From: Octopus vulgaris
Taxonomy: Eukaryota
Direction: 5' to 3'
Length of the DNA stretch: 64,000 nt
Assembly: GCA_951406725.2 (NCBI GenBank)
Contig: OX597823.1
Coordinates: 96,968,001 to 97,032,000, forward strand
The notes under the pieces were generated by a model. It did not search any database, had not been told where the DNA came from, and worked only from the letters and a program-made list of their open reading frames with translations. Position 1 is the stretch's first letter. Each line of letters starts with the position of its first letter. Both the position numbers and the translations under genes were made by a program. This document shows, in pieces, positions 706 to 62,900 of the stretch.

Positions 706-1349
706 AAACTTACAAATGCTTCACATTTCTGGTTATCTCATTGTTCAATTGCATAAAGCGACCAGACAAGTTCAGTTGAATGAAATTACTTTCCAGTTCA
801 ATGAAGTTATAAAATTCTCCTCTTTTACTCCCTGGCTCTTTGGAGCACGGCATATAGGTTGCAAAAGGAATAAACAGAGCTTCTAGGTCTATCAACCAAG
901 AACATTCCCATACCTTCAAGGAAAATATACATGGAGTCACTTATGCACATCATCATCGTTTAACGTCTGTTTTCCATGCTAGCATGGGTTGGACAGTTCG
1001 ACATGGGTCTGGGAAGCCAGAAGGCTGCACCAGGCTCCAGTCTGATCAGGCAGTTTCTACAGCTGGATTCCCTTCCTAACGCCAACCACTCCGTGAGTGT
1101 AGTGGGTGCTTTTTACGTGCCAAGGGAGGCTGGCAGTGGCCACGATTGGTTGGTGCTTTTTACGTGCCACCGGCACAGAAGCCAGTCAAGGTGGCGCTGG
1201 CATCAGCCACGTTTGGATGGTGCTTTTTACGTGCCACTGGCAAAGGTATCACAACTACAATTTCCATTTGATATTTATTTTGATGTTGACGTACTTGAAT
1301 CAATAGGTCTCCTCAAGCACAGCAGGTCATATGCCACCGGCACAGAACT

Positions 1350-19355: not shown

Positions 19356-20527
19356 TATATAGTCAACGTGGAGGACTGGAAACCATCTGAATATTGGAAA
19401 GAGTTACTTGTATCATGATGATGTGCACAGGGTATCAAAATGTTCACATAGTGACTCATACTCAAGGTGGTGGTGGTGGTGGGTGATTTGGATAAACTGC
19501 CCCTGGTGAAGCTTTCATGGGGTGTCAGTGCTTTTGGGTTTGCTGTGTAAGTCTGTATAGGGGGCACAGAGGATGGATGGCAAATTCAGGGGCTGCTTAA
19601 GGTGGAAAGCTGGCTGAATCATTAGCACACCAGGTAAAAAGCTTAGTGGCAGTTTGTGCATCTTTATATCCTGAGTTCAAATACTGCTACGGTTGACTTT
19701 GCTTTTTATCCTCTCGGGGTCGATAAAATAAGCATCAGTTGAGCAGTGGGGTTAATGTAACCAACTTGCACCCACTCCCAGCAACTGCTGGCCTTGTGCT
19801 AAAATTTGAAACCAAATTAAAGGGTGCTACAGGTGGCACACACTCTAGCTGCATTGCTGACATTATTAAGAGTCAGTGAGGAGAGGGACATGCCCATGAA
19901 TTTTGCAGGGCCTTGAAGACTGATGAAGGAATAAATAAATAGTCTTCATATCCATCATTTATTAAGCATCACTGTCATAAAATCAAAAGGAAAGCTGATT
20001 GTTACTGCATTTAATGCAGGAAACATAAAAAAATCCAAAAAGCTGATCAGAATTAAATATCATTATCGTCATCATCATTTAACATCTTTTTTTCCATGCT
20101 AGCATGGGTTAGATGGTTCAACAAGGACTGACATGCACGAAGACTGTGCTGAACTCCAACGTCCAGTTTGGCATTTTTTCTGCTGCTAGATGTCCTTCCT
20201 AATGCCAACCACTTTACAGAGAGTACTCGGTGCTTTTTAAGTGGCACCAGCATTAGTGAGGTCACCAAGAATCATCATCATCATCATCATTTAATGTTAA
20301 TTTTTTTTTCTATGCTTGCATGGCTTGGATGGAATTGGGTTGAGGCAGACTTTCTGCCGCTGGCTGTCCCTCCTGTCTCCACCATTTACCTGTTTTGAAG
20401 TAAAGTGATATTTATATCTATGACAAGGAGAGTGGAAACAAAAGACCTGCTTGCACGATGGTGACACGCGTTTCAACTATCACATGGCAGAGGACAGTAA
20501 CAGATACATGCACACACATAAACATAA

Positions 20528-23869: not shown

Positions 23870-25560
23870 GTTGAATTTGCAGATTTCTTTAAGGCATTCG
23901 AAAGTGTTAAAAGAAGGGTTTTGGTACATACTCTTTTGAATTATGGTACTGCAGATGAGACTGGGTCTTTTTGTATGAAAACTCATCAAACTTTGTGAAA
24001 AACCACAGAGAGTCCAAGTAAAGAGTTGCCAACAACAGCAGGAATCCTTCAAGGGGACATCCTAGCTTGTTTTCTCTTTGTGATTGCAGTAGGCTACATC
24101 CTTAGGCAAAGTCTTGACCTCATCAAAGACAAAGGCCTCACCATCAAGCAGAAATGATCAAAACATCAGCAAGCAAAGCTGTACCTCTCTGACATTGGCT
24201 ATACTGATGATCATATCTTAGTAGAGGCACATGGCTTTGTGGTTAGGATGCTGCACTGGTGATAGTAAGATTGGGGTTTCAATTCTTGGACCAAGAGATG
24301 TGCTGTGTTCTTGAGCAAAACACTTCATTTCATGTTGCTCCAGTCCACTTAGCTGGCAAAAAGAAGTAATCCTGCAATGGTCCAGCATCCTGTCCAGTAG
24401 GAAGAATATAAGCTACAGAATCTGAGAAACTGGCCCTATGAGTGTCTATGAATTGGGAAGGAGCTCTTTTTTTATAGCCACGATCTTATCTTCACACTTC
24501 ATTAGCTGCATGATGCACGAGACTTGTTAACACCCCGTGAGGATATTGCATCCAAAGTTGGTCTGTTTCTCAATGCTAAGAAGATTAATGATCATCAATG
24601 AGGATGAAAGCCACCTGCCAATTTGTTCCAACAATGCCAGCACCGCCTGGACTGGCTTCTGTGCCGGTGGCACGTAAAAAGCACCAACCGATCGTGGCTG
24701 TTGCAGCCTCGCCTGGCACCTGTGCCGGTGGAACGTAAAAAGCATCCACTACACTCACGGAGTGGTTGGCATTAGGAAGGGCATCCAGCTGTAGAAACAC
24801 TGCCAGATCAGACTGGAGCCTGGTGCAACCTCCTGGCTTCCCAGACCCCGGTCGAACCATCCAACTCATGCTAGCATGGAAAGCGGACGTTAAACGATGA
24901 TGATGATGATGATGACAGTGTCTTCAAAACATTGGTGACTTCAAGTATTTTGAGTCCTGTGTTGCTGACAGATAGAAAGACTTTCTGACATGTAAGAGAC
25001 AAGCCTGGAATAACTGTAGCGAATTTCACAACATTTGACAATCAAATACTTCAAAGTGAACAAGGCTGGTCTTCTTCATGATAGGCGTAGAGGGAATTAT
25101 TCTTTATGAAGCTGAAACCAGGGCTTGGAAGAAGGAACATCAAGATTGCTTTAATATTATATACACCAGGCTTCTTATCAGGGCTCAAAATAGTTAATGG
25201 CATGAGCACAAGGCCAAACAGGAATATATCCACCTATCTAATTGTTGCTCAATGCAAAATAGACTTAGTATTAAGTGTGTATAAGTAGCCATGCTGGACG
25301 TTATATTTTGGGGAATTACACACCCTAATAGAAGGATCAAAACACTTAGCCATATTAAACTGAGAACCTCTCTCAAGCTAATAGGGGATAGAGATTACTA
25401 GTGCAGTGTAGTAAAACATATCTCAGCTGTGGCATCATCAAAGCTGGCTGTGGGACTAATCAAAACAACAACAACAACATCAGCAACCATTTGTAGGTAG
25501 ATGTATGAAACTTTACAAAAACTTGCCTTGATAGATAGAAGATGGTTAAATGTTTCTAGC
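23870..25560 (+). mobile_element. Old RTE-like LINE RT remnant with nested SINE and RTE 3' UTR
   Basis: FADFFKAFESV, GILQGDILACFLFVI, YTDD, KVGLFLNAKK, DFKYF and LYEAET. Confidence 0.7.
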
Positions 25561-27377: not shown

Positions 27378-30300
27378 GTAAGCTGTTTTTTTTTTTCTTT
27401 TTAATCTTTTTAAAATTTGTTTTTTTTTTTACAAGAAGCCGCCGCCTATTCTGCATTATAAGCTCTATATATAAAAGTTTAAAAGTTAGTTTTATATATG
27501 TATTTTGTTAACTTTCTTTTATCCCTTATCAAATATAACTGAATTCTGATCTCTAATTACAACATATTTCAAAGCATGCATTAATTAAGCTACTGCAAAT
27601 GATAGTTTAAGGGAATTATATTTTATTTTTTCTTAAGAGGACAACTGAAAAAACTTGGATTTAAAAATAATAAAAACAATATTTAATGGCTTTGCAAGTA
27701 TTTTGCAATATGAAATTGTGTAAAATATCGAAAAATCTTGAAAAAGAAAAAAAAAAGGAATTCTATTTTATTCGCGACAGCTATTCCGAAAGTCGTTCTC
27801 TTTCTAATTTAAACTTTTTAAAAAAGAAAACAATTTTATTTGGGGGCTAATACAGATTCGAAAAATGCATTTTTCTGAAAAAGTTTATTCGGCACCCCGC
27901 ACCCCCATTTCTAAATGTATTGTATATTGAAGTGTGGAAATTTCATTAAAACCGGTATGTAACGTGAGAAAATATGGGGGTGAAAAAAATATCATCGAAA
28001 AATTAAAATTTTTCACAATTACACCTATTAAAACATTGTCATTTTATAACGCTTTGCTGGCAAATTCTTAAATTTTCTTTTTCAATCCCTGACCAAATAG
28101 TTGCTTGTTTGAAAGTCCGCCTAATAGAACTAACCTCAGCTTCAGACCGAAACAGGTTTGCGCATATCTATTTGGGACATATTTTAAAAAGTAAAAATTG
28201 ATTTTTTAAAAGTGTTTCTCTTCTAAAAGTGCTCCTAACTTCAGGCTGTACACGTGTGATCATTGATCTCTGCTAGTTGGATTTTAAATCCAGGCAGTTG
28301 AATTTTAAAAAAAAATTGTGCACTCTTTTTATTTGCTTTTCCGTCTGCATTTTTATATCGATGTATGAAATTTAAAACTTTCTGACCTTTTTAAATATTT
28401 AATTCATATAAACGCTCTGGTCTGTTATGTAATTTTTCTTATGCTCATTTTCATCGGAGATGGAGTGCGTGTGTGTGTGTGAGAAAGAGAAAGCGCGCGC
28501 TCGGATGATTCAATTAACGGCATTCTTGTAGAATAGCGTCGGAAATTTTTTAATATTTCAAAAACTATGTCTAATTTTGTCTTCCACAACTTTGAGATTT
28601 TCGCTTTTAACTTTGTTTCATTAATATGAACATCCTTTTATATTTGTTTTAAAAAGGAGAAAAAAATGCGTAACGAATCTGAAAAGATTTTCGGAAAAAC
28701 GTTTAAACCGAAAAAGTGTAAAAACAGGGTACCTAAAAACAGATGGAGGTTAGTTGAAACCCCAGCCAACCATCAGAAATTTTGTAGAATCGAAATCCAC
28801 AGTGCTTCAAACAAATATTTCCAAATAAATTTGAATGCCGAATTGATTTCATTCGTAACTTGCTTTACCGGTGACCAGTAATAAAGTCACAGGAAAAAAA
28901 TGTCACAATTTTGGGTAGTAAAAAAAAAGTCACAATTTATAGCATTAGGACAAAACCCTTGTGACTTTTTTTTTTTTTTTGCCTGAATTGGCTTTACCTA
29001 CATCACCATCGTCGATTAACGTCCGCTTTCCTTGCTGGCATGGGTTGGACGGTTTGACTGAGGACTGGCAGACCAGAAGGCTGTACCAGGCTCCAATCTG
29101 ACCTGGCATAGTTTCTACAGCTGGATTCCCTTCCTAACACCAACCACTCTGAGAGTGTACTGGGTGCCTTTTACGTGCCACTGGCACGAGGGTCAGTCAG
29201 GCGGTTCTGGCATCGGCCACGACAATGACTTCACTTGACACAACAGGTCTTCGCAAGCACAGTTTATTGCCCAATGATTGAAGGGTGCTCTTAAATGGAC
29301 TGGTTATGCTGCACTGGCATAGGCCACGGTTACTGTCTCACTTGGCTTGCCGGGTCTTCTCAAGCACAGCATATCTCCAAAGGTCTCGGTCACTCGTCAT
29401 CGCCTCAGTGAAGCCCAACGTTCAGAATATAACAAAATTCATTGATTTGCTTAAGTTTTCTAAACGCCTGCATTTTGATAAAATGAAATTGTGCATCAAT
29501 AATAAAGATTATCGCCCAGTACTCATTTTACCCCACTTGCCAATTTTTCCCACCTCTAATATTCACTTTCTGTCCATTTAATCGTGCGTAGGTTGTATGA
29601 ACCCTGTTTATTTCTAGATTGGATCCAAAATGTTTACGGATATATGGTGTATTACATAATTTTCTTTGTTCACTGATTGCCAGGTTATCTATTCTAGATA
29701 TCGGCTATAAATACGACCGAGGGGGTGGGGTGGATACTGCAGGGCAGCGTGCTACATTCACATATTACAGTTCCACATTTGTAATATGGTGAGTTAAATA
29801 CTTCCAGTTATTTGAGATCATCGTTTCATTGATAGCGAACGATCAAGAGGGCGTGCAGGGTTCTGGTTGTGCTCAAGCAGAATATCTTAATAAGTCGAAA
29901 TAAATAATAATAAATGCGCCCTTTTAAAGCCTAGCCAGGCTCATGGGCCCGGTTTCCCACTTTCAATGGCGTATGTGTTCCCCAGCGTTACTCGTTTTTG
30001 CCAGCTGAGTGGACTGGAGCAACGTGAAATGAAGTGTTTTACTCAAGAACACAACGCGTCGCCCGGTCCAGGAATCGAAACCACAATCTTACGATCATTG
30101 TGCTGATACCCTAACTACTAAGCCACGCGCCTCCACAATAACTCAAAATAATTGCTTCTTATTTAAGCACATGCCCAGTAATTTTAAGTAGATGAGGTTA
30201 TTCGGTTATCTTGAGTCTAGTATTTAACTGGAACTTTTTATCGATCCTGTAATGATGAAAGCTAAGTTGAATTTGGTGGGATTTGAACTCCCACGTAAGC

Positions 30301-36300: not shown

Positions 36301-39300
36301 TGGGGTTTCTTTCATTTTCTGCCTACAATATCCATTCACAAGGTTTTAGTGTGGACCCTGGTTGAGAACCACTCCCTTAAGAAAGAAGTTTGCATTGTGG
36401 AACCAGTCATTTTCAGGTGAGATGGTATGAAAAGGTTTAAGAATGCACACACACGTGTGTGTGTGCTTGAGGTCTGATAAATAAGTAATCCAGACTGTTG
36501 CCTTGGTAACAAAGCTAAAGCACACAGTAAAGCCACTTAGCAGAGATTGAACTTTAGCTCTGCTGTGCATGCACACTGTTTTAACGTTTCAGCTCACTTC
36601 TGCTGTTTACAGCAATGCTTGGAAGGAAGGTGTGTAGCGTGTGGTTATCACATTGACTAGGAAAGAAAAAGGTGTCATGGCAATACCTGCTCAGAGGCTT
36701 ACAAAGTTTCAGAAAGTGTATGCAGAGGAGTGTATGAGCTGCACACAAGTGTATGAATAGTTCAGATGTTTCCGAAAAAATGTCTATATCGACAAACATT
36801 CTGGGAGACCCGCAACCAGCCAAACTGAAAAAACACCTCACGAATGTGCCTGCAGCTGTTAGGGTAAAGATAATTGATTCACCATCCATGAGTTATCAGA
36901 TTAGTTATGGTTCAACACAGTCCATTATCATTGGAGGTTTGGGTACCAGATGCATGTCTGCTAAGTTTGTGCCAAATCTGCTTTGAGTTGATCAAAAAGC
37001 CACCTGAGTTTCAGTTGTATAAGATCTCCTTGATTGTGTTGAGAATGATAAAAATTTTTAGAAATTTTGTATAGGCCTCTGGGCAGGTATTGCCAAGCAT
37101 TTTGCAAAATTTGATGCAGATTCTCTGCTCAACTTTCTCTGTCATGATCAATGCGATGATCACATGCTACACACCTTCCTTCCAAGCACTGCTGTAAACA
37201 GCAAAAGTGAGCTAGAACATTAAAATTTAGTGTGCATGCACAGCAAAGTTTTTATTCAATCTGTGCCAAGTGGCTTCACTCTGCATGCTTTAGTTTTGTT
37301 ACTATGGCAGTCCGGATACTTATTGATCAGAACACACACACATATATCATTCATCATCATCATTTAACGTCCGTTTTCCATGCTAGCATGGGTGTGACGG
37401 TTTGACCGGGGTCTGGGAAGCCAGGAGGCTGCACCAGGCTCCAGTCTGATCTGGCAGTGTTTCTACAGCTGGATGCCTTTCCTAACATCAACCACTCCGA
37501 GAGTGTAGTGGGTGCTTTTTATGTGCCGCCAGCACAGGGGCCAGAGGAGGCTGGTTAATGGCCATGATTGGTTGGTGCTTTTATGTGTCACCGACACGGA
37601 CGCCAGTCAGGTGGTGCTGGCATCTGCCACGTTTGGACGATGCTTTTTACGTGTCACCGGCATGGGTATCAACCAAATTCCACCCACAAAATACTGGCCA
37701 ATCTGTGACTGTTAGAAAACATTTGTCTAAGGTGCCAAGTGCAAAGAACTGAGATTGAACACGCAATCTATAATTGCAAAACAAACTTAATTACACAGCC
37801 ATGTCTACACACAGAGTAAAAAATCCTTTTTCTTTCTTTTATCTTTTCAGAAAATTTACATCTTGTACTTAAGATTTTATTTTTCACTATTTCATTTTTT
37901 TAAATATATTTTTTTGTTTTGTTTTCCAGTACTCCTATGTCCAACACACTGAGTGCCACAGAACATACATGTGCTTTAATTATGGCCCTCAGCAGGTTAG
38001 TTTTACAAATTTCTTGTTCATAATGTTTATAGATTTCTAATGTCAGAAGCATGTTGTAGTGTTTTGAGACTTGTTATTGTTGTTTAACAAGTGAGACTTT
38101 ATTGAGTAAACTTAGTCAGAGGTATTGCACTCATGAATTTACTCGCCCCTTTGTTCTCATCATCATTTTACCATCCACTTTTCCATGCTTGCTTGGGTTG
38201 ACCAGCAGTTACTATGGCAGATTTTCTATGGTCAGCCATACAAAATCTTCCTCAATAAGCTTTGTCTGACCCCTGCATATCATCATCATCATCATTGGAC
38301 AATTTGACTGAGGTCTGGAAAACCAGATAGCTGCACCAGACTTCAATCTGATCTGGCAGGGTTTCTACAGCTGGATGCCCTTCCTAACGCCAACCACTCC
38401 GAGAGTCTAGTGGGTATTTTACATGCCACTGGCATGAGGGCCAGTCAGGTGGTACTAGTAACGGCCAAGCTCAAATGGTGCTTTTTATGTGTCACCTGCA
38501 CAGGAGCCAGTCCAGCGGCGCTGGCAACGACCTCACTCGAATGTTTTTTCAAGTGTCACCAGCACAAGTGCTAGTAAGGTGACGCAGGTAACGATCACGC
38601 TCGAATGGTGTTTTTAACGTGCCATCGCTCAGAGGCCAGCTTGTTGCTCTGGCCCCGATCTCACTCGTATGGTAATCTCCACTAGCACGGATGCCAGTCA
38701 CCAAATTTGATTTCGATTTCACTTGCCTCAACAAGTCTTCGCAAGCAGAATTTAGTGTCCAATGAAGGAAAGGCATGCATAAGTGGACTGGTTATACCCC
38801 TGGCATAGGCCACAAGGTTATGGTCTCACTTGTGCTTGCCGAGTCTTCTCAAGCACAGCATATTTCCAGAGGTCCCAGTCACTAGTGAGGCCCAGTGTTT
38901 GAAGGTCATGCTTCACCACCTCATCCCAGGTAATATTTTTCCATACCCAGATATGTTTTTGCAGAATATTGGAAGTGACTGGCAATTATTTACAACAAAC
39001 AAATGATGTTAAGACACTCTCTTTCACACATGCATGATAGTCTTCTTTCAGTTTCTGTCTACAAAATCTACTCACAAGGCTTTGGTCAGTTTGAGCAATA
39101 GAAGACACTTGCCTAAGGTGCCATGCAGTGGGTCTGAACCCAAGACTGCATGGTGAAGAAGCAAGCTTCTCAACGATGCGTGTGGCTTTTTTTTGTGTGT
39201 GTGTGGTTGTTGCCAGTGCCACCTGACTGGCTACCATGCTGGTGGTATGTAAAAAGCACCATTCAAGCATGGTCGTTGCCAGTACCACCTGACTGGTCCT

Positions 39301-42300
39301 TGGCTGGTGGCATGTAAAAAGCACCCACTGCACTCTGAGTGGTTGGCATTAGGAATGGCATCCAGCTGTAGAAACTTTGCCAGTCCTCAGTGAAACCGTC
39401 CAATCCATGCCAACATGGAAAGCGGATGTTAAACGATGATGATATGTGTGTGTGTGTGTTTGTCATTTTCTTAAACATCGTGTGTGTGTGTGATTATGGT
39501 TGGTTTTACTTTATGATTTATGGTACCTAAATAATATTTTGTACTCTAGGCACAAGGCCTGAAATTTGGGGGAAGGTGTCAGTCTATTAGATCGATTCTA
39601 GTACACAACTTTGCTCACTCAAATGAAGAGCACAGAGCATGTGTGTGTATACACACACACACACACACCTCACCTGGTGGTGAGATTATCAGACAAAAAG
39701 AATATTAATGGGGGTGGGCAGCAGTCTAACAAAACAAGGCTGCATGAAGTAACAATATTTATTAAGTATATGTAGGCTCGTCATCATTTTGATTATTCAC
39801 TGTCCAAATTTGCATGGGTTGGATGGGGTTTACTAAGGCAGATTTTCTCTAGCCAGATGTCCATCCTCTGGCCAACCCTTGCCCATTTTTGAACCAGGTA
39901 ATATTTCTCTGCCCTGACATGTTTTTTGGAGAATTTACAACAATCACACAATGCCCTGACAAAGAGACATAAATCAACCCACACACACACATACATATTT
40001 ATATGTATATTCAATCAGTTATTTCGGTTTCTATCTACCAAATCCACTCAGAAGGTTTTGGTCAATCCAGGAAGTGGAAGACATTTGCTTAAGGTGCTAC
40101 GCTGTGGGATTGAACCCAAAACCATGTCGTTGAGAACTAAATTCTTGACCATAGTCATGTCTGTGTCTATAGTCACAACATCAGAGATTTATATCATAAT
40201 CATCATTTAACATCCGTTTTCCATGCTAGCATGGGTTGGACGGTTCGACCGGGGTCTGGTACACCATAGAGGCTGCACCAGGCTCCAGTCTGGTTTGGCA
40301 GTGTTTCTACAGCTGGATGCCCTTCCTAACGCCAACCACTCCGTGAGTGTAGTGGGTGCTTTTTACGTGCCACCGGCACAGGGGCCAGAGGAGGCTGGCA
40401 AACGGTCACGATCGGTTGGTGCTTTTATGTTTCACCAACACGGACGCCAGTCAGGCAGTGCTGGCATCTGCCACATTCAGACGGTGCTTTTTATGTGTCA
40501 CTGGCACAGGTGTCTTAACTACAATTTCCATTTGATTTTAATTTTGATGTTGGTGTTGATGTACTTGACTCAATAGATCTCCTCAATTCAGTCAACACTA
40601 CAAGCCTGTTGGCTATTTTATAGAATCCAGAGGGATGACAGGCAAAGTCAAGTCTCTTTCAGCAAGATCCAAACTAATTTTGACCGATATATTACTAAAG
40701 CCCACAAGATTATCTCCATCACTTTGCAGTCTTTCTATTGAAGAAATGTTAATTTGAACCATGTATATTTTAGGCTTTAAAAATTCTTTAATTACTTCTT
40801 ACATTTAGGCATGTTCCTCAGGCAGCCAAATCTATGAAAGATGGTTTGTGGGACCGCAAAAAATATATGGGTACTGAGTTGTATGGCAAAACTCTTGGAA
40901 TTATTGGTTTGGGTCGTATAGGCAGAGAAGTTGCAAAACGTATGCAGTCTTTTGGTATGAAGGTAAGGAATATTTTTAAAATTTTTTTTATGCTAATCTG
41001 ATTTTTTTACCAAATTTCACTGGCAACATATTTCAGTAGAATTAGTTAAGATAATTGTTTGAAAATAAGGAAAAAGAAAAATCAAAATATCCAAAAGAAG
41101 GCCTAAAGGAGGTTCCTAAACATTTTACTACCAAGGTCCCATTATATTTAATCCCTTGTATTGCCATATTTTTCTTGAAATATTCTGCCCTTTTTTTTTC
41201 CAATAGTTTTGACAAATTTTTGTAAAATAACATTGTCATTGTTAAGTTGGTATTTGGAACACAAATTAACATGGGATTTTGAGAGATTTTAATTTGGATC
41301 ACTTTAAAACAGGAAGCATGTATCACAGAAGTAAGAGTGGTTTCAGTGGGTTGGTACCAAGGCTGACCCTAGGGTTGTTGGTGCCACAGGCAAGCTGAAC
41401 TTCAGCATGTACAAGCTGATGGTTGTGGAAATTTCTTTGTCTTTGTTACTTTGTCATTTTTAGATGTGCATGCTCTCCAATTTATGAGGAAACGGTCGGA
41501 TGGGGGCACACTTGTTTAGGTATACCTAATATATATATATTTAGGTAAATTTTAGGAAGTACATCCGCATGTGTTTCCCCAAGAAAAACAAAAACAAGAT
41601 TGGTGGAAGATTTTAATTCAAAACTTATGAAAACAAGACATTTGTACTCAGGGCCAATTTCAGCTGGGTTGGTAACAGAAGGGTTAATATAATGAGGTTT
41701 TAATTTTGGCACAAGCAATTTTGACTCAAAGGCGGTGAGCTGGCAGAAACGTTAGCAAGCCAGGCGAAATGCTTAGCGGTATTTCATCTGCTGTTACGTT
41801 CTGAGTTCAAATTCCACCGAGGTTGACTTTGCCTTTCATTCCTTTGGGATCAATAAATTAAGTACCAATTACGCACTGGAGTTGATGTAATCAACTTAAT
41901 CTCCATGGGCAATAAAGAAATAACAAGCAATTTTGACACAAAGACTTTAGTCAATACCATCACTTCTAGTACTTGACTGGTACTTTATAATACAATTTGA
42001 TTCAAAACGGTGATTCTTTACCAAGGTCCAAATGACTCTTGGGGGTCCATGTAAGATTTCGTTGAAATTTAAATGCAATGAATTGGTTATATTTAAACAA
42101 TACATAAAAATATTTTAATTTTTTTATTCAATTCCAAATAATTAATTATAAAAATATAAGATTTTTCAAACATTAAGTAGCCTGAGGAGGAGGGTGGGTG
42201 TCTGAGTAAAATAGGAATCAAGGAGTCCATAGAGAAAAAAATGGTTGAGAACCACTGATTTAAAAGAACAAAATCTCTTAAAATAGTTTTCCTAATTATT

Positions 42301-56700: not shown

Positions 56701-57559
56701 GGTCAATCTGTGCCAAGTGGCTTCACACTCATTTTTTTGCTTCGTTACCATAGTAACAATCTGGATACTTATGAAACCACATACAGCAATCAGATATTTT
56801 AAAACATAAGCTTTTGTATATTTACCTCTAGATTGACAGTGGCTGTCAACTTGTGCTTCGTCAAAGATCACATCAGCAGGAAGAGAGTCTCCGGCTTCCA
56901 AATTTGTTTTCGTATTGGCAACCAAAACACTTATATTCTTATACTTTTGTACACATGTTCTGCCATTTCTGCAAAGACATCAAGAGACATTAAAAGAACA
57001 ATTGTCAGCATAACCATTCTGTCATTGCATGTCTTAAGCTTTTCTTTTACTATAAATGTGTGTGTGTATGTGTATATATGTGTGTGTATGTATGTGTGTA
57101 CATGTGTATGTGTATATAGATGTATATGTGTGTGTGTATGTATATATATATATATATATATAGTTCATAGATGAGATCCAGATATTCTCCACATAGAATA
57201 CACTTAATAGTGCTCAAGAGATTTGAATTTGGGTATGGAAGTAGATATAGGGATAACCAAATTAAACAAATCAGTATATAAAGTATATTAAATACAAAAT
57301 ATGTATACATATAAAAAGAGTACAAATGATATAGAAAATTAATGGTGTGGAGGAAAAGTATTACAAATCCTACAGCTGTTTCTTGGGTGGCCGGGCTCAT
57401 CAATCCATAATAACATTTGTAGATTAATTGCATCTCCTTTAACATCTCAAATGTAAGATCTCTTACCTGAAGACAGAGGCTCATCTCATCCTATGTGTAT
57501 GTTGGACATTTATATGTATATATATATATATATACATATTTTGTATTTCTTGCATGTCC

Positions 57560-58175
57560 CAAACATTGAAGAGTACCCCTGCTGCGTTGGGCAATATGAT
57601 ATGCTTGAGAAGACCTGTTGAGTCAAGTAAAACCAAAATCGTAGCTGTGGCCAGTGCCCCTGACTGGTACCCACTCTGGTTGCACATAAAATGCATCATC
57701 TGAACATGGTCAATGATAATGTTTCCTGACTGGCTCCCATGCCGGTGGCACATAAAAAGCACCATCCAAACAGGGTCAATGCCAAGTCCGCCTGACTGGC
57801 TCCTGTGCCAGTGGCAAGTAAAAAGCACCATGCGAATATGTCCAACGCCAGTACCCCTTGACTGGCTCCCGTGCTGCTGACACGTAAAAAGCACTATCCA
57901 AACATGATCAATGCCAGGAACACCTGAATGGCCCCATGCTGGTGGAATGTAAAAAGCATTATCTGAACATGATTGATGCCAGGCCCGCATGACTGGCTCT
58001 CATGCTAGTGGTACATAAAAAGCACCCACTACACTCTTGGAGTGTCTGGCATTAGGAAGGGCATCCAGCTGTAGAAACATTGCCAGATCAGATTAGAGCC
58101 TGGTGAAGCTACTGGCTCTCCAGACCTCATCCAACCCATGCAAGCATGGAAAATGGACGAGGATGATGATGATGA
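57560..58175 (+). mobile_element. RTE 3' UTR copy with six tandem ~65-nt units
   Basis: TAAAA(A)GCAY anchors at about 57687, 57750, 57817, 57882, 57948 and 58013. Confidence 0.85.
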
Positions 58176-58299
58176 TATATATATATACATGTACATATGT
58201 ATGCATACATTCTTTTATTTTATATTTTTCAGCCTTCAGGCTGCAGCCATACTGGGGCACCACCATTGAAATCATCTTTTAATTGGCCAATTTTATGGG

Positions 58300-59900
58300 T
58301 TTGGTTTCTAGTGAAGGAGGAAGTTCGATATTGCTTCCCTCTTTTTAGTTTCCTGCCTTGATATCAGTTCATCTGGGATCTTGGAAAGAAAGAGGTCAAA
58401 TTGTTTCTTGAAAGCATCTACTCTCACTCCATGGAGGTACCTCAGAGGATTTGGCAAGGAGTTGAATCCCAAGCTATTGCAGTACATAGCCCTTGCCCTA
58501 GATGAGACAACTGGGACTTTTGGAACAGTGCAGTGATGTCCATTTCAAGGTCTGGTATAACTCTCAATTCTAAAGTTTGGTGCCAGCTCCTCCAGTATCT
58601 TCCATACATGTATCACTGAGTATCTCTCCCGTCTTCGCTCTATAGAGCTCTTTTAGTCACTACCAGTAGCTCAGCTGTTCCATTGGTGCAATCTTCCTTG
58701 TGTAGTATCTCTGAACCACCTCAAGTTCTGCTATTAATCCCATAGCATAGGGTGACCATAGTTGAGAGCAGTAGTTCAGATGGATGAGGACAAATGCCCT
58801 CCATAGGACCAGCATAGTTTCCTGGTCCCTTGTTCAGAAGGTTCTCTGAATCCAGCCAGCCATTTGCCTGCTCGCTGCTACCATCTTGGTGACATGCATG
58901 TGAAATGAGGCATTGCTGCTCATATCAATCCCAAGATTATAGACCAGATGTGATTCTAGGATTTCCACTCCTTTTGGTCCAAAGTATCATTGTTGTGACT
59001 TCTGAGCACCAATTAGCTGGTAGTGGAGGGCTTGGAATTTGCCTGCATTAAATTGCATGCCCTCAGCCCATTTATATATTGTATCTAGGTCTTTCTGTAG
59101 AAGATTAGCATCAGAAGGTTCCTTGACTGCTTGTACTACTTTTGTATCATCGGCATAACTAGTAAGTGTGGCTATCTGTGTAACTGATGGCATGTCTGAA
59201 AGAGCCACCATGAACAGCAGTGGCTCCAATACAGTTCCTTGAGGCACTCCACTTTCTATTAATGTTTCCATGGTGAGGGCTCCATTGGTTGCTACAGCTT
59301 GGCTTCTATCTTTTAAGAAGTCATGCAACCACTCTGCAATTTTCCCAGTTATGCCGAGTCTCCGTAGTTTGTGACATTCCATCCCATGATCGAACTTATC
59401 AAAGGCCTTTGGAAAGTCAAAATATATCACATCTACATTTGAGCAATTCATTAATTGTTTCAACATCCAGTCATAGTGTTGTAAAAGCTGTGTAAGGCAG
59501 CTTCTTCCTGAGTGAAAGCCATGTTGGGTGTCAGGAAACAAGTCATTATCTCCGAGGAACACATGGGAAGTTAGGGAGGCAGGTCTATAATTCTGAGTGT
59601 CTGCTCTGCTACTTCCCTTATGGATAGGGCATATAATGCTTTCTTTTAACTTTTTGGGAAGTCTCCCTGTTGTGAAACTCTGAAAGAGAACCCCAAGTGG
59701 TCTAGTTAGAGCCCCTTTGCATTTCTTTAGGAGTATTTCTGGGAATCTGCCAGGGCCTATGGCTGATATCACATCAGTTTCATCTATGCTGATGCTATCA
59801 ATAATTGCCATTTTGTTGTGTAGATCTGAGGAGCCAAAGAACTCGTCAGGCATAGCTACTGGAGTTGTGAAAGCACTCTTGTATTGCACATTCAGTATTT
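58300..59900 (-). mobile_element. CR1-group LINE reverse transcriptase, decayed
   Basis: PIHKG..NYRPASLTS, QHGF..GRSCLTQLL, DFPKAFD, SGVPQGTVL and YADDTK, then YCSQLWSP, LEVVQR and FNSLP. Confidence 0.93.
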
Positions 59901-62900
59901 CACTGATATATGTCTGTATATATACACTGACACGCACAAATGCACATACATACACACGTGTGTGTGTGTGTGTGTGTTAAGTGCAATATGTTTTGTAAAC
60001 ACATATTGCTTGAGAAGAAGACCCATCAAGCCGAGCAGAATTGCAGTCATGGCAGATACCAGTGTTATACAAATTGGCACCACCATGCTGGTGGCACGTA
60101 AGCACACCCTGGTGTCACGCAAATGACACCCATGCCTGTGGCATGTAAAAGCACCCATTACACTTTCAGAGTGGTTTATGTTAGGAAAGGCGTCCAGCCG
60201 TAGAAAACCATGCCAAATCAGACTGGAGTCTGGTGCAGCCTGGTCAAACTGTCCAACTCATGGACAATGGACGTTAAATGGACGCAAAAACAACAACAAA
60301 AAAATGTTTTCTTAGACATCATTAATATAAAATTGAATATTTCATATGAAACATGTATTGTTCCTTACCCTTTTTTACACTTTCCTACATTAATTTCTTG
60401 GAATGTTTTATTAATTTCTGCAAGATATTTAATCTTGCTGTCTGTGTTGTTTATCGTTTCTTTGGTGTAGACAAAGTACCTCCTAGAAAGAAAGAAAAAA
60501 TTTAAACTGGATTTATTTTCATCAATGTTGGTCATGGATGAATGTATAAGTTCCATTTGAAATAAGTTCACATTAAAATAATGATGTGAATAACATTTAT
60601 GGTGTATATACAAATGGGGAAGGTGTGTGACTTAGAAGTTAGGGTGCTGCACTTATGATTACAAAATTGTGGTTTCAATTCCCAGACTGGCGGTGATTTA
60701 TGTTCTTGGGCAAAACACTTCATTTCACAATTCTCCTGTCCACTCAGATGTAAATAGGTAACACTGCCCTACATTCGTGGGGGGGGGGGGTGAGTGTTGG
60801 CCTGCCAGCCTACCCATTAGTAGGATGGTACTGTTTGAAAGAGCTGGCAGAAACGTTATCATGCTGGGCGAAATGCTTAGCGGTATTTTGCCTGCCGTTA
60901 CGTTCTGAGTTCAAATTCCACTGAGGTCAACTTTGCCTTTCATCCTTTCGGGGTCGATTAAATAAGTACCAGTTACACACTGGGGTCAATATAATCGACT
61001 TAATCCGTTTGTCTGTCCTTGTTTGTCCTCTCTGTGTTTAGCCCCTTGTGGGTAGTAAAGAAATAGGTATTTCGTCTGCTGTTACGTTCTGAGTTCAAAT
61101 TCCGCCGAGGTCAACTTTGCCTTTCATCCTTTCGGGGTCGATTAAATAAGTACCAGTTACACACTGGGGTCGATATAATCGACTTAATCCGTTTGTCTGT
61201 TCTTGTTTGTCCCCTCTGTGTGTAGCCCCTTGTGGGCAGTAAAGGAATAGGTACTGTTTGAAAGATACAACAATGCAAAAAAATGCAATGCAACCAGTCG
61301 TGTGTAATGACATCTGATTGTCTGATCAATGCAGTGACTTACCTGACATACATCATCATCATCATCATCATTTAATGTCCGCTTTCCATACTAGCATAAG
61401 TTGGACGATTTGACTGAGGGCTGGCAAACCAGATAGCTGCACCAGGCTCCAATCTTGATCTGGCAGAGTTTCTACAGTTGGACACCCTTCCTAACGCCAA
61501 CCACTCCAAGAGTGTAGTGGGTGCTTTTTACGTGCCACCGGCATGGGGGCCACTCAGGTGGTACTAGCACACATTGACATACAAATGTAAAAGAACACTG
61601 ACTGTAAAGTTTTAAGTCAGAGAAACTTCTCATACAAATATTTATTCCGATACAGGAATCAATGAATGTTTTGTTTACCGATTTCTGTGCTGGACAAATA
61701 TATCAAACTAATATTTTCTGGTTTAGCTGTGGAAGTCCAAGAAATGAAACTAAATCAAAACACCATTTTCTGACCATGCACCATCAACATTCTGAAGAGA
61801 GGTCTATGTTTTTTAACAAATGTCTGTTTGAGAAGTTTATATTCTTCTTATATATTTCCTTGTAACATATCTTGCATGCTAGCATGAATGGAATGCTTTG
61901 ACAGGATCTGTGTTGGATCTTGTCAAGCTAAGTAAAATCACTGTGTTCCACAAATACAAGTTTGTCCTTCAAGTGCTGGTCCCACATAAAAGGCACCTGC
62001 ATAGGTGCTGCATCAATGCACCCATGCCAGTGGCATGTAAAAAGCACCCATCACACTCTGTTAAGTGGTTGGCATAAGGAAGGGCATCCTGCCATAAAAA
62101 CCATGCCACAACAGACAGTTGGATCTGAACAGCTCCCTGCTGGTCAGTTCCATGCCAAACTGTCCAACCCATGGAGAGCAGACATTAAACGATAAGTCGT
62201 AAATTTCAAAGCAGTGCCCCATCATGGTCACAGTCTAATGAATGAAACAAGTAAAAGATAAAAGAATATAAAAATTGAAAGTGTTGAACAATAAATGAAA
62301 TGAATTTTCTACTTACGTTTCACAAGGAAGATGTTCATTTCCTTCTAAATGATTAAACGCGCCAAGATATTTATTGTAGGAACTTGATGACAAACAGGAT
62401 GTTGTGTCATTCCAGACATTCAAGCCAGAAATAGCTACTATCAGAATACAGATTATTTGAACCTGAAATTCAAATAAAAATGTTTGACTATTATTATTAT
62501 TATTATTATTCCCTCTCTCTCTTTCGGAGAGGCACAAGCACCTACACGCACATATACACACACGGCAGTAACTTCCGCCTACCGAATTCAATCACAAAGC
62601 TTCGGTCGGCTTGGGGCTATAGCAGAAGACACCTGCCCAAAGTGTCACGCAGTGGGACTGAACCTGAAACCATGTAGCTAGGAAGCTCCCTAACCACACA
62701 GCCATGTCCACCAGCAACTCCCTTAGGCCCTTTCTTAACAGACAATGCTCTTTGGTCTTAGATTTTGATACTGTGCCGGTGGCATGTGTAAAAGATTTGA
62801 GCGAGGTCATTGCCAGTACCACCTGACTGGCACGTAAAAAGCACCCACTACACTCTCGGAGTGGTTGGCGTTAGGAAGGGCATCCAGCTGTAGAAACTCT

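What the first reader, a model, noticed from the sequence alone, without database searches (positions are those of the whole stretch)
57560..58175. Tandemly amplified compact H-type pseudoknots in an RTE LINE 3' UTR
Seen: the most abundant repeat here (about 20 copies) contains 1-6 tandem ~60-65 nt units. In a clean unit (24660-24685) TGTGC pairs with GCACG (S1) and GGTG pairs with CACC (S2), with a 1-nt L1, no L2 and an A-rich L3 (TAAAAAG). Each unit is preceded by a GCCAGT..ACTGGC hairpin. Established: this topology resembles compact pseudoknots such as the luteoviral frameshift type. Inference: the array may act as an exonuclease block, stability element, RT-binding platform or unrecognised ribozyme, and its copy number varies between insertions. 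Caveat: the apparent C-G to T-A covariation (15125 vs 46992 units) could be CpG decay.
Basis: partly seen in the sequence, partly recalled or inferred. Interest (0 to 1): 0.7.

Follow-up and report, generated by a model that had tools for sequence, protein, structure and literature searches.

The report
Tandem RNA modules in octopus retrotransposon
A very common octopus jumping gene carries one to six copies of a short module that could fold into a small RNA knot; it likely came from the front end of a related element, and whether it shields the RNA from decay is untested.

Summary
The array is real: six 62-66 nt units at 57650-58026, and 60 unit hits and 26 element loci in the window. It follows the ORF end of an RTE-type LINE whose closest named proteins are from Octopus. 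It is not an ordinary 3' UTR. Relatives have short tails without the array, and in one the ORF runs straight into a near-identical tail. The segment after the array matches a domain that lies about 70 nt from the 5' END of hagfish RTEs, behind a twister hallmark in one of them. So the array likely belongs to a captured piece of RTE 5' end. The pseudoknot is possible (13 of 52 cores keep both stems; none at the flagged locus) but unproven. One non-CpG double change is offset by mismatches at the same pair and by unit types lacking a stem. The closest analogue is the coremin Xrn1-resistant RNA rather than luteoviral frameshift knots, but its defining loop and spacer rules are not met. No known ribozyme matches. 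Verdict: new variant of known RTE chimeras; Xrn1 block about 20%.

The parts
57523..57539 (+). possible 5' target-site duplication (AT-rich, so weak)
   Evidence: 16 of 17 letters match 58176-58192
57545..57649 (+). 5'-truncated post-ORF segment, with a repeat of the ORF-end sequence at 57594-57628
   Evidence: 80% over 35 nt to the ORF end of the copy at 29331-29440; left edge judged by eye
57650..58026 (+). array of six 62-66 nt units: hairpin H1, short linker, S1/S2 core, A-run, spacer. Cores start at 57738, 57804, 57870, 57935 and 58001; the first unit is degenerate
58031..58045 (+). hairpin behind the last unit
58047..58086 (+). GGAAGGGCATCC domain, homologous to a domain near the 5' end of RTE LINEs and of short RTE-tailed elements
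   Evidence: metagenome loci; PMC7245038 supplement
58087..58128 (+). linker, part of a long predicted hairpin in better-kept copies; partly deleted here
58129..58175 (+). RTE tail: terminal stem-loop and (GAT)n
   Evidence: the same tail in copy 40190-40356 is 82% identical over 62 nt to the ORF-overlapping tail of L003, E=1.5e-11; fold
38830..38931 (-). RTE ORF C-terminus joined to a five-unit array and tail
   Evidence: 81% over 36 aa to P0002
29341..29421 (-). RTE ORF C-terminus joined to a one-unit array and tail
   Evidence: 81% over 27 aa to P0059; P0059 is an Octopus vulgaris predicted protein
40190..40530 (-). well-kept three-unit copy; second unit (core at 40442) carries U5-A11

Best explanation
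The flagged stretch is a decayed, 5'-truncated copy of an octopus RTE-type LINE end in which a 62-66 nt module, likely taken from the 5' end of an RTE together with the domain behind it, sits between the ORF end and the old tail and has been tandemly duplicated, with the extra units likely riding along as passengers. Shown: the order ORF end, array, GGAAGGGCATCC domain, tail; the lack of the array in relatives; the 5' position of that domain in other RTEs; unit numbers from 1 to 6. Inferred: a short bipartite element (RTE 5' piece plus tail) became fused behind the ORF by recombination or template switching. Units were multiplied in source lineages by slippage or unequal exchange among the many short shared GC words. 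5' truncation adds more apparent variation. The last unit likely folds as two hairpins and can close a compact pseudoknot. The terminal stem-loop, not the array, is the likely RT recognition signal.
For: ORF end contiguous with array and tail. Of 79 metagenome loci with a mapped ORF end, 60 had 200 nt or more downstream; 49 of these 60 gave a loose tail-motif match within 330 nt, mostly at +60 to +100 (a few matches at +2 to +29 may be chance). The unit profile found 0 hits in all 80 loci. In L003 the ORF runs through a tail 82% identical to ours. The domain occurs 31 times in those loci, mostly about 35 nt behind a shared start, and in the copies I read through it leads to the LINE's own tail. 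[quoted passage not shown] Bipartite RTE chimeras are common (PMC5786205). Passenger status: unit types lacking S2 or S1 recur in several copies; A11 occurs in 10 of 52 cores and only 2 have the matching T5 (p=0.41); single units fold no better than shuffles (z 0.47, 0.19, 0.01, 0.03 for four units, -1.3 for the bare core) while the 3' end does (z -3.1).
Against: No octopus RTE 5' end was available, so the 5' origin of the unit itself (as opposed to the domain behind it) is inferred from position only; the short elements in the metagenome loci have no such unit. Some signs of selection on structure exist: H1 is kept with different loops and stems; U5-A11 occurs in two copies; C11 in an older short type lengthens S2; the L1 position tolerates C to A (17-31% of depth in three runs, 7% in the fourth); 15 of 16 last units keep at least 3 of 4 S2 pairs against 27 of 36 internal ones (not tested for significance). 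5' ends lean towards the S1 start.
Confidence: 0.5

Rival explanations
1. Each intact unit is a coremin-like Xrn1-resistant pseudoknot. 5'-3' decay of host or LINE transcripts would stop just before S1 and leave short tail-bearing RNAs that the LINE copies back into the genome, which would favour more units.
For: Anatomy close to xrRNA-C/xrRNA-WCC: same three basal pairs and loop-closing C-G, 1-nt L1, U then A-run, G-C at the junction (PMC6546385, PMC10321173, compared by eye). Xrn1 stops at the base before hp1 (PMC10520033). Among 15 copies truncated in the array, I placed 9 5' ends between -10 and +2 of S1 (p=0.0008), 5 of 11 without the older short type (p=0.05), and 3 of 11 within a 4-nt window (p=0.026). 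RT stalling would be expected on the other side of the knot (inference).
Against: The loop is five bases (CGGUG); tested pentaloops did not resist Xrn1, and YGAD/YGNNAD and CUAC are absent. WCC types need G at L1; ours is C. hp2 must follow almost at once; the best hairpin starts within 1 nt in only 4 of 15 last and 3 of 25 internal units. The BWYV knot, with or without hp2, does not stall Xrn1. The 5' end counts are by eye, with windows chosen afterwards; one of the 9 (37664) may lie near -20; the conserved core biases boundaries towards S1; TSDs could fix almost none of them.
Confidence: 0.2
2. The knot is kept in the LINE RNA as a binding or folding platform for the RT protein, or as a general stability element, and more units give more binding.
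For: Position near the tail; partial structural conservation.
Against: Relatives with the same kind of protein and tail lack it; copies with one unit and copies truncated inside the array inserted well.
Confidence: 0.12
3. The units work as DNA: internal promoter monomers from an RTE 5' end that let short copies be transcribed, like mouse L1 monomers (recalled).
For: They sit in the slot upstream of a 5' UTR domain; LINE 5' pieces are proposed as SINE promoters in molluscs (PMC4758252 passages); the older short type starts about 10-13 nt before the core.
Against: No promoter test was possible; hairpin conservation points to RNA.
Confidence: 0.1
4. The unit is a self-cleaving ribozyme of a new kind, filling the place that twister fills in other RTEs.
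For: The twister P4/L4 hallmark directly precedes the same domain in RTE-2_EBu; twister variants head Perere-3 (PMC8501958 passages).
Against: No Rfam match at gathering in the window, and no ribozyme among the 7 weak matches over two copies; no twister hallmark in the unit; ORF-linked copies with 5-6 units were inserted uncut.
Confidence: 0.04

Closest known systems
Bipartite RTE-derived elements and chimeras (Kojima 2018 PMC5786205; hagfish SINE1-1/SINE2-1_EBu, PMC7245038)
   Same: RTE 5' UTR domain joined to an RTE tail with microsatellite; the same GGAAGGGCATCC domain
   Different: Here the bipartite piece lies behind an ORF end rather than behind a tRNA/7SL head, and carries a tandem array
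RTE-clade LINEs with a PHD finger after the RT (P0004, P0007; L003)
   Same: C-terminal sequence, tail stem-loop and (GAT)n
   Different: They have short tails and, in 80 loci, no unit
Coremin xrRNA-C and xrRNA-WCC of RNA viruses
   Same: Small hairpin ending ACG, then U and an A-run, then a 4-mer facing the loop; 1-nt L1; repeats occur
   Different: Five-base loop, no YGAD or CUAC, one more pair per stem, downstream hairpin usually not adjacent; host retroelement, untested
Luteoviral P1-P2 frameshift pseudoknot (BWYV, PLRV)
   Same: Compact H-type size, C in L1, A-rich linker
   Different: No slippery site (0 of 52), lies behind the stop codon, L1 varies to U and A
Twister variants at RTE 5' ends (Perere-3, RTE-2_EBu)
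   Same: Position directly upstream of the same domain (RTE-2_EBu)
   Different: No twister sequence or Rfam match

Membership tests
RTE-clade LINE | single ORF with AP endonuclease and RT | tested here: inconclusive
   Only 27-36 aa of ORF end lie in the window; full-length relatives at 43-44% identity to P0002 have both domains
RTE-clade LINE | 3' stem-loop with short tandem-repeat tail | tested here: met
RTE-clade LINE | RT phylogeny against named clade references | not tested
   No named reference protein was held. The C-terminal tree (21 of 60 proteins) groups P0002 with the PHD-bearing set at 96/91. The clade name rests on recall and on the shared domain with named hagfish RTEs
RTE-clade LINE | target-site duplications | tested here: inconclusive
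   One exact 9-mer (copy 61521) and AT-rich candidates among 22 copies
Bipartite RTE element | RTE 5' UTR piece joined to RTE 3' tail | tested here: met
   (hagfish sequences compared by eye)
Bipartite RTE element | no ORF sequence | tested here: not met
   ORF end joined upstream in at least 2 copies
Coremin xrRNA-C | loop YGAD or YGNNAD; pentaloops inactive | tested here: not met
   loop CGGUG
Coremin xrRNA-C | spacer ending A-A-C-U-A-C | tested here: not met
   spacer ends AGCACC or AACACC
xrRNA-WCC | Watson-Crick S2 with junction G-C | tested here: met
   junction pair G-C in 37 of 42 units
xrRNA-WCC | G at L1 | tested here: not met
   C 31, T 10, A 2 of 43
xrRNA-C/WCC | hairpin directly downstream | tested here: inconclusive
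   within 1 nt in 7 of 40 units, within 6 nt in 30 of 40
xrRNA-C/WCC | stalls Xrn1 | not testable with these tools
   needs an in vitro assay
Luteoviral frameshift signal | slippery heptamer just upstream, in coding sequence | tested here: not met
   0 of 52; units lie behind the stop codon
Known self-cleaving ribozymes | match to an Rfam model or catalytic core | tested here: not met

The most novel reading that the evidence does not exclude
An animal retrotransposon carries its own tandem, coremin-like Xrn1 blocks. Decay of any transcript that runs through a copy would yield a protected, tail-bearing sub-element RNA that is copied back into the genome, making a SINE-like flood without a Pol III promoter.
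Probability: 0.18. Interest if true: 0.8.

Novelty: new variant of a known kind. Interest (0 to 1): 0.42.

Why it matters
This family is very abundant: 26 loci in 64 kb, and 84,810 and 128,500 contigs laid in two large runs (not a copy number). Its layout, a 5' UTR piece behind the ORF end, extends the known RTE chimeras. If the unit blocks Xrn1 it would be a viral-type decay barrier in a host mobile element and would offer a route by which LINE ends become SINE-like. One cheap in vitro assay would decide it. My searches listed no paper on this array or on xrRNAs in retrotransposons; I saw most of those listings only as titles and abstract starts, the library lacks most subscription papers, and Repbase/Dfam could not be searched.

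Tried and rejected
No own genome is held, so all covariation rests on 42-52 window units from dead copies. One search used a mis-registered structure and is void; one search replaces it (85% paired, 2 of 500 shuffles as high, covariation score 7 of 500; weak because the structure came from these sequences). RNAalifold on the units chose a different 4-pair hairpin, which shows how many folds compete. A2/T14 co-occur (p=0.018), but both are CpG decays and it is one of eight tests. Exact unit patterns found nothing in viral or metagenome contigs, nor the domain in viral contigs. Protein-led scans of viral and prokaryote contigs found no relative. No N-terminal RTE piece lies in the 80 loci or in the window, so no 5' UTR could be read. 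No RNA holder was listed, and only contigs were available, so RNA ends could not be mapped; this is no evidence either way. Searches of 4 of 8 supplementary files of PMC9115989 found none of three motifs; four files were not searched and two more are too large, and they may hold the full element. PMC5786205's supplement lacks the domain. TSD search was mostly uninformative. Earlier-findings look-ups by sequence, place and one word set gave nothing.

Full report
Observation. The flagged stretch holds a tandem array (57650-58026, period 66, 5.7 copies), then a conserved segment and a (GAT)n tail. The terminal segment occurs at 26 loci in the window. A profile built from 29 units finds 60 units, against 1 hit in the reversed window; a fuzzy core pattern gives 52 matches against 0-2 in 10 shuffles. 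The unit at 24660-24685 is as described. In the 7 copies that reach both the post-ORF region and the tail, unit numbers are 1, 1, 2, 3, 3, 5 and 6 (by eye), so the variation is not only 5' truncation.

What the element is. Two copies have an ORF C-terminus joined to the array (38830-38931 and 29341-29421). It matches P0002 and P0059 at 81%. P0059 and a cluster mate of P0002 are Octopus vulgaris predicted proteins, and O. bimaculoides gene models contain pieces of it. Full-length relatives are single ORFs of about 1,100 aa with endonuclease, RT and a PHD finger. The name RTE rests on this anatomy, on recall, and on a domain shared with named hagfish RTEs; I had no reference set for a clade tree (one search is a C-terminal tree of 21 of the 60 proteins held). 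The flagged copy itself is 5'-truncated and holds only a repeat of the ORF-end sequence.

The array is an insert. Of 79 with a mapped ORF end, 60 had enough downstream DNA and 49 gave a loose tail match within 330 nt, mostly at +60 to +100; the unit profile hit none of the 80. In L003 the ORF reads through a tail that is 82% identical over 62 nt to the window's tail (E=1.5e-11). The GGAAGGGCATCC domain behind the array occurs 31 times in those loci, mostly about 35 nt from a shared start, and in the copies I read it belongs to a short element with the LINE's tail. [quoted passage not shown] In RTE-2_EBu it directly follows the 16-nt twister P4/L4 consensus given in bioRxiv 10.1101/2024.07.11.603121 (passages). 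PMC5786205 (parts 1-3 of 5) describes such bipartite RTE pieces as common. I infer that the octopus LINE gained a 5' piece plus tail behind its ORF end, and that the unit occupies the slot of the 5'-terminal module. That the unit itself is of 5' origin is not shown.

Structure. Each unit has a hairpin H1, a short linker, and a core that can form either a 6-bp hairpin or S1 plus S2. Rough energies are alike: -7.1 for the hairpin and about -5.9 for the knot with a recalled Dirks-Pierce penalty and no tertiary terms. An exact S2 partner would arise by chance about 2% of the time. Both stems are intact in 13 of 52 cores, and in none at the flagged locus. On 42 aligned units 85% of cells pair, but most changes are at CpG sites, and window CpG o/e is 0.36. 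The one non-CpG double change in S1, U5-A11, is in 2 cores (37598, 40442); these two letters are not among the 40 variant rows shown, which hints that they are fixed in that lineage, but 75 rows were hidden. Against it, 8 cores have A11 without T5 (p=0.41). An older short type has C11, which would lengthen S2 and shorten S1. L1 tolerates C to A. Recurrent unit types lack S2 or S1. Single units fold no better than shuffles; the 3' 111 nt do (z -3.1). So the knot is plausible for the last unit and optional elsewhere.

Mechanism. I favour a passenger model (0.5): the terminal stem-loop likely serves the RT, as for stringent LINEs (established knowledge), and extra units arise by slippage or unequal exchange. 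The strongest rival is an Xrn1 block (0.2). The core resembles coremin xrRNAs in its basal pairs, U plus A-run and junction G-C (PMC6546385 parts 1-2 of 4, PMC10321173 introduction and parts 2-4 of 6, PMC10520033 parts 1-3 of 6). It fails the loop, spacer and L1 rules, and the same papers show that the BWYV knot does not stall Xrn1. 5' ends lean towards the S1 start (9 of 15; 5 of 11 without the short type), but the calls are by eye, after the fact and open to detection bias. Frameshifting is excluded (0 of 52 slippery sites). No Rfam family matches.

Literature and novelty. I also read passages and section 8 of PMC9115989 (its RTE-2_OV has a mostly microsatellite 3' UTR, so probably another family), part 1 of 3 of PMC13282606, and passages of PMC4758252 and PMC8501958. 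None of what I read describes this array. Searches listed none either. Unread supplements of PMC9115989 and PMC13282606 may bear on this. An earlier AI note (e1-7808980) reports structured RTE leaders in another genome; I did not test it. Verdict: a real feature, a new variant of known RTE chimeras, with an unproven pseudoknot and an easily tested Xrn1 hypothesis. Interest 0.42.

Noticed in passing
window 58987-59976 (-): RT fragment of another LINE (Pfam RVT_1 E=2.5e-17), only 22-27% like this RTE group; looks CR1/L2-like from recall
   Followed up: partly
window 60882-61253: two tandem copies of a 184-nt short repeat, 10 loci in the window; looks like a known octopus SINE (recalled)
   Followed up: no
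window 58047-58086 and e.g. L011, L060, L079: The GGAAGGGCATCC domain is conserved in octopus, the metagenome loci and hagfish RTEs, with a predicted closing stem; it may be a widespread structured RNA worth its own study
   Followed up: partly
window 20059-20332 (-): a short older-type copy starts directly behind the (GAT)n tail of another element with the same tail
   Followed up: no
window 1306-1346 (-): a unit core lies upstream of the ORF-end-like repeat, so larger duplications that include the ORF end also occurred
   Followed up: no
P0003, P0004, P0007: this RTE lineage has a PHD finger between RT and C-terminus; the set groups at 96/91 in the C-terminal tree
   Followed up: partly
P0012, P0056, P0058: O. 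bimaculoides gene models include RTE ORF pieces, probably annotation artefacts
   Followed up: no
window 38290-39450 and 61350-62120: pairs of copies lie back to back within 300-400 nt on opposite strands
   Followed up: no
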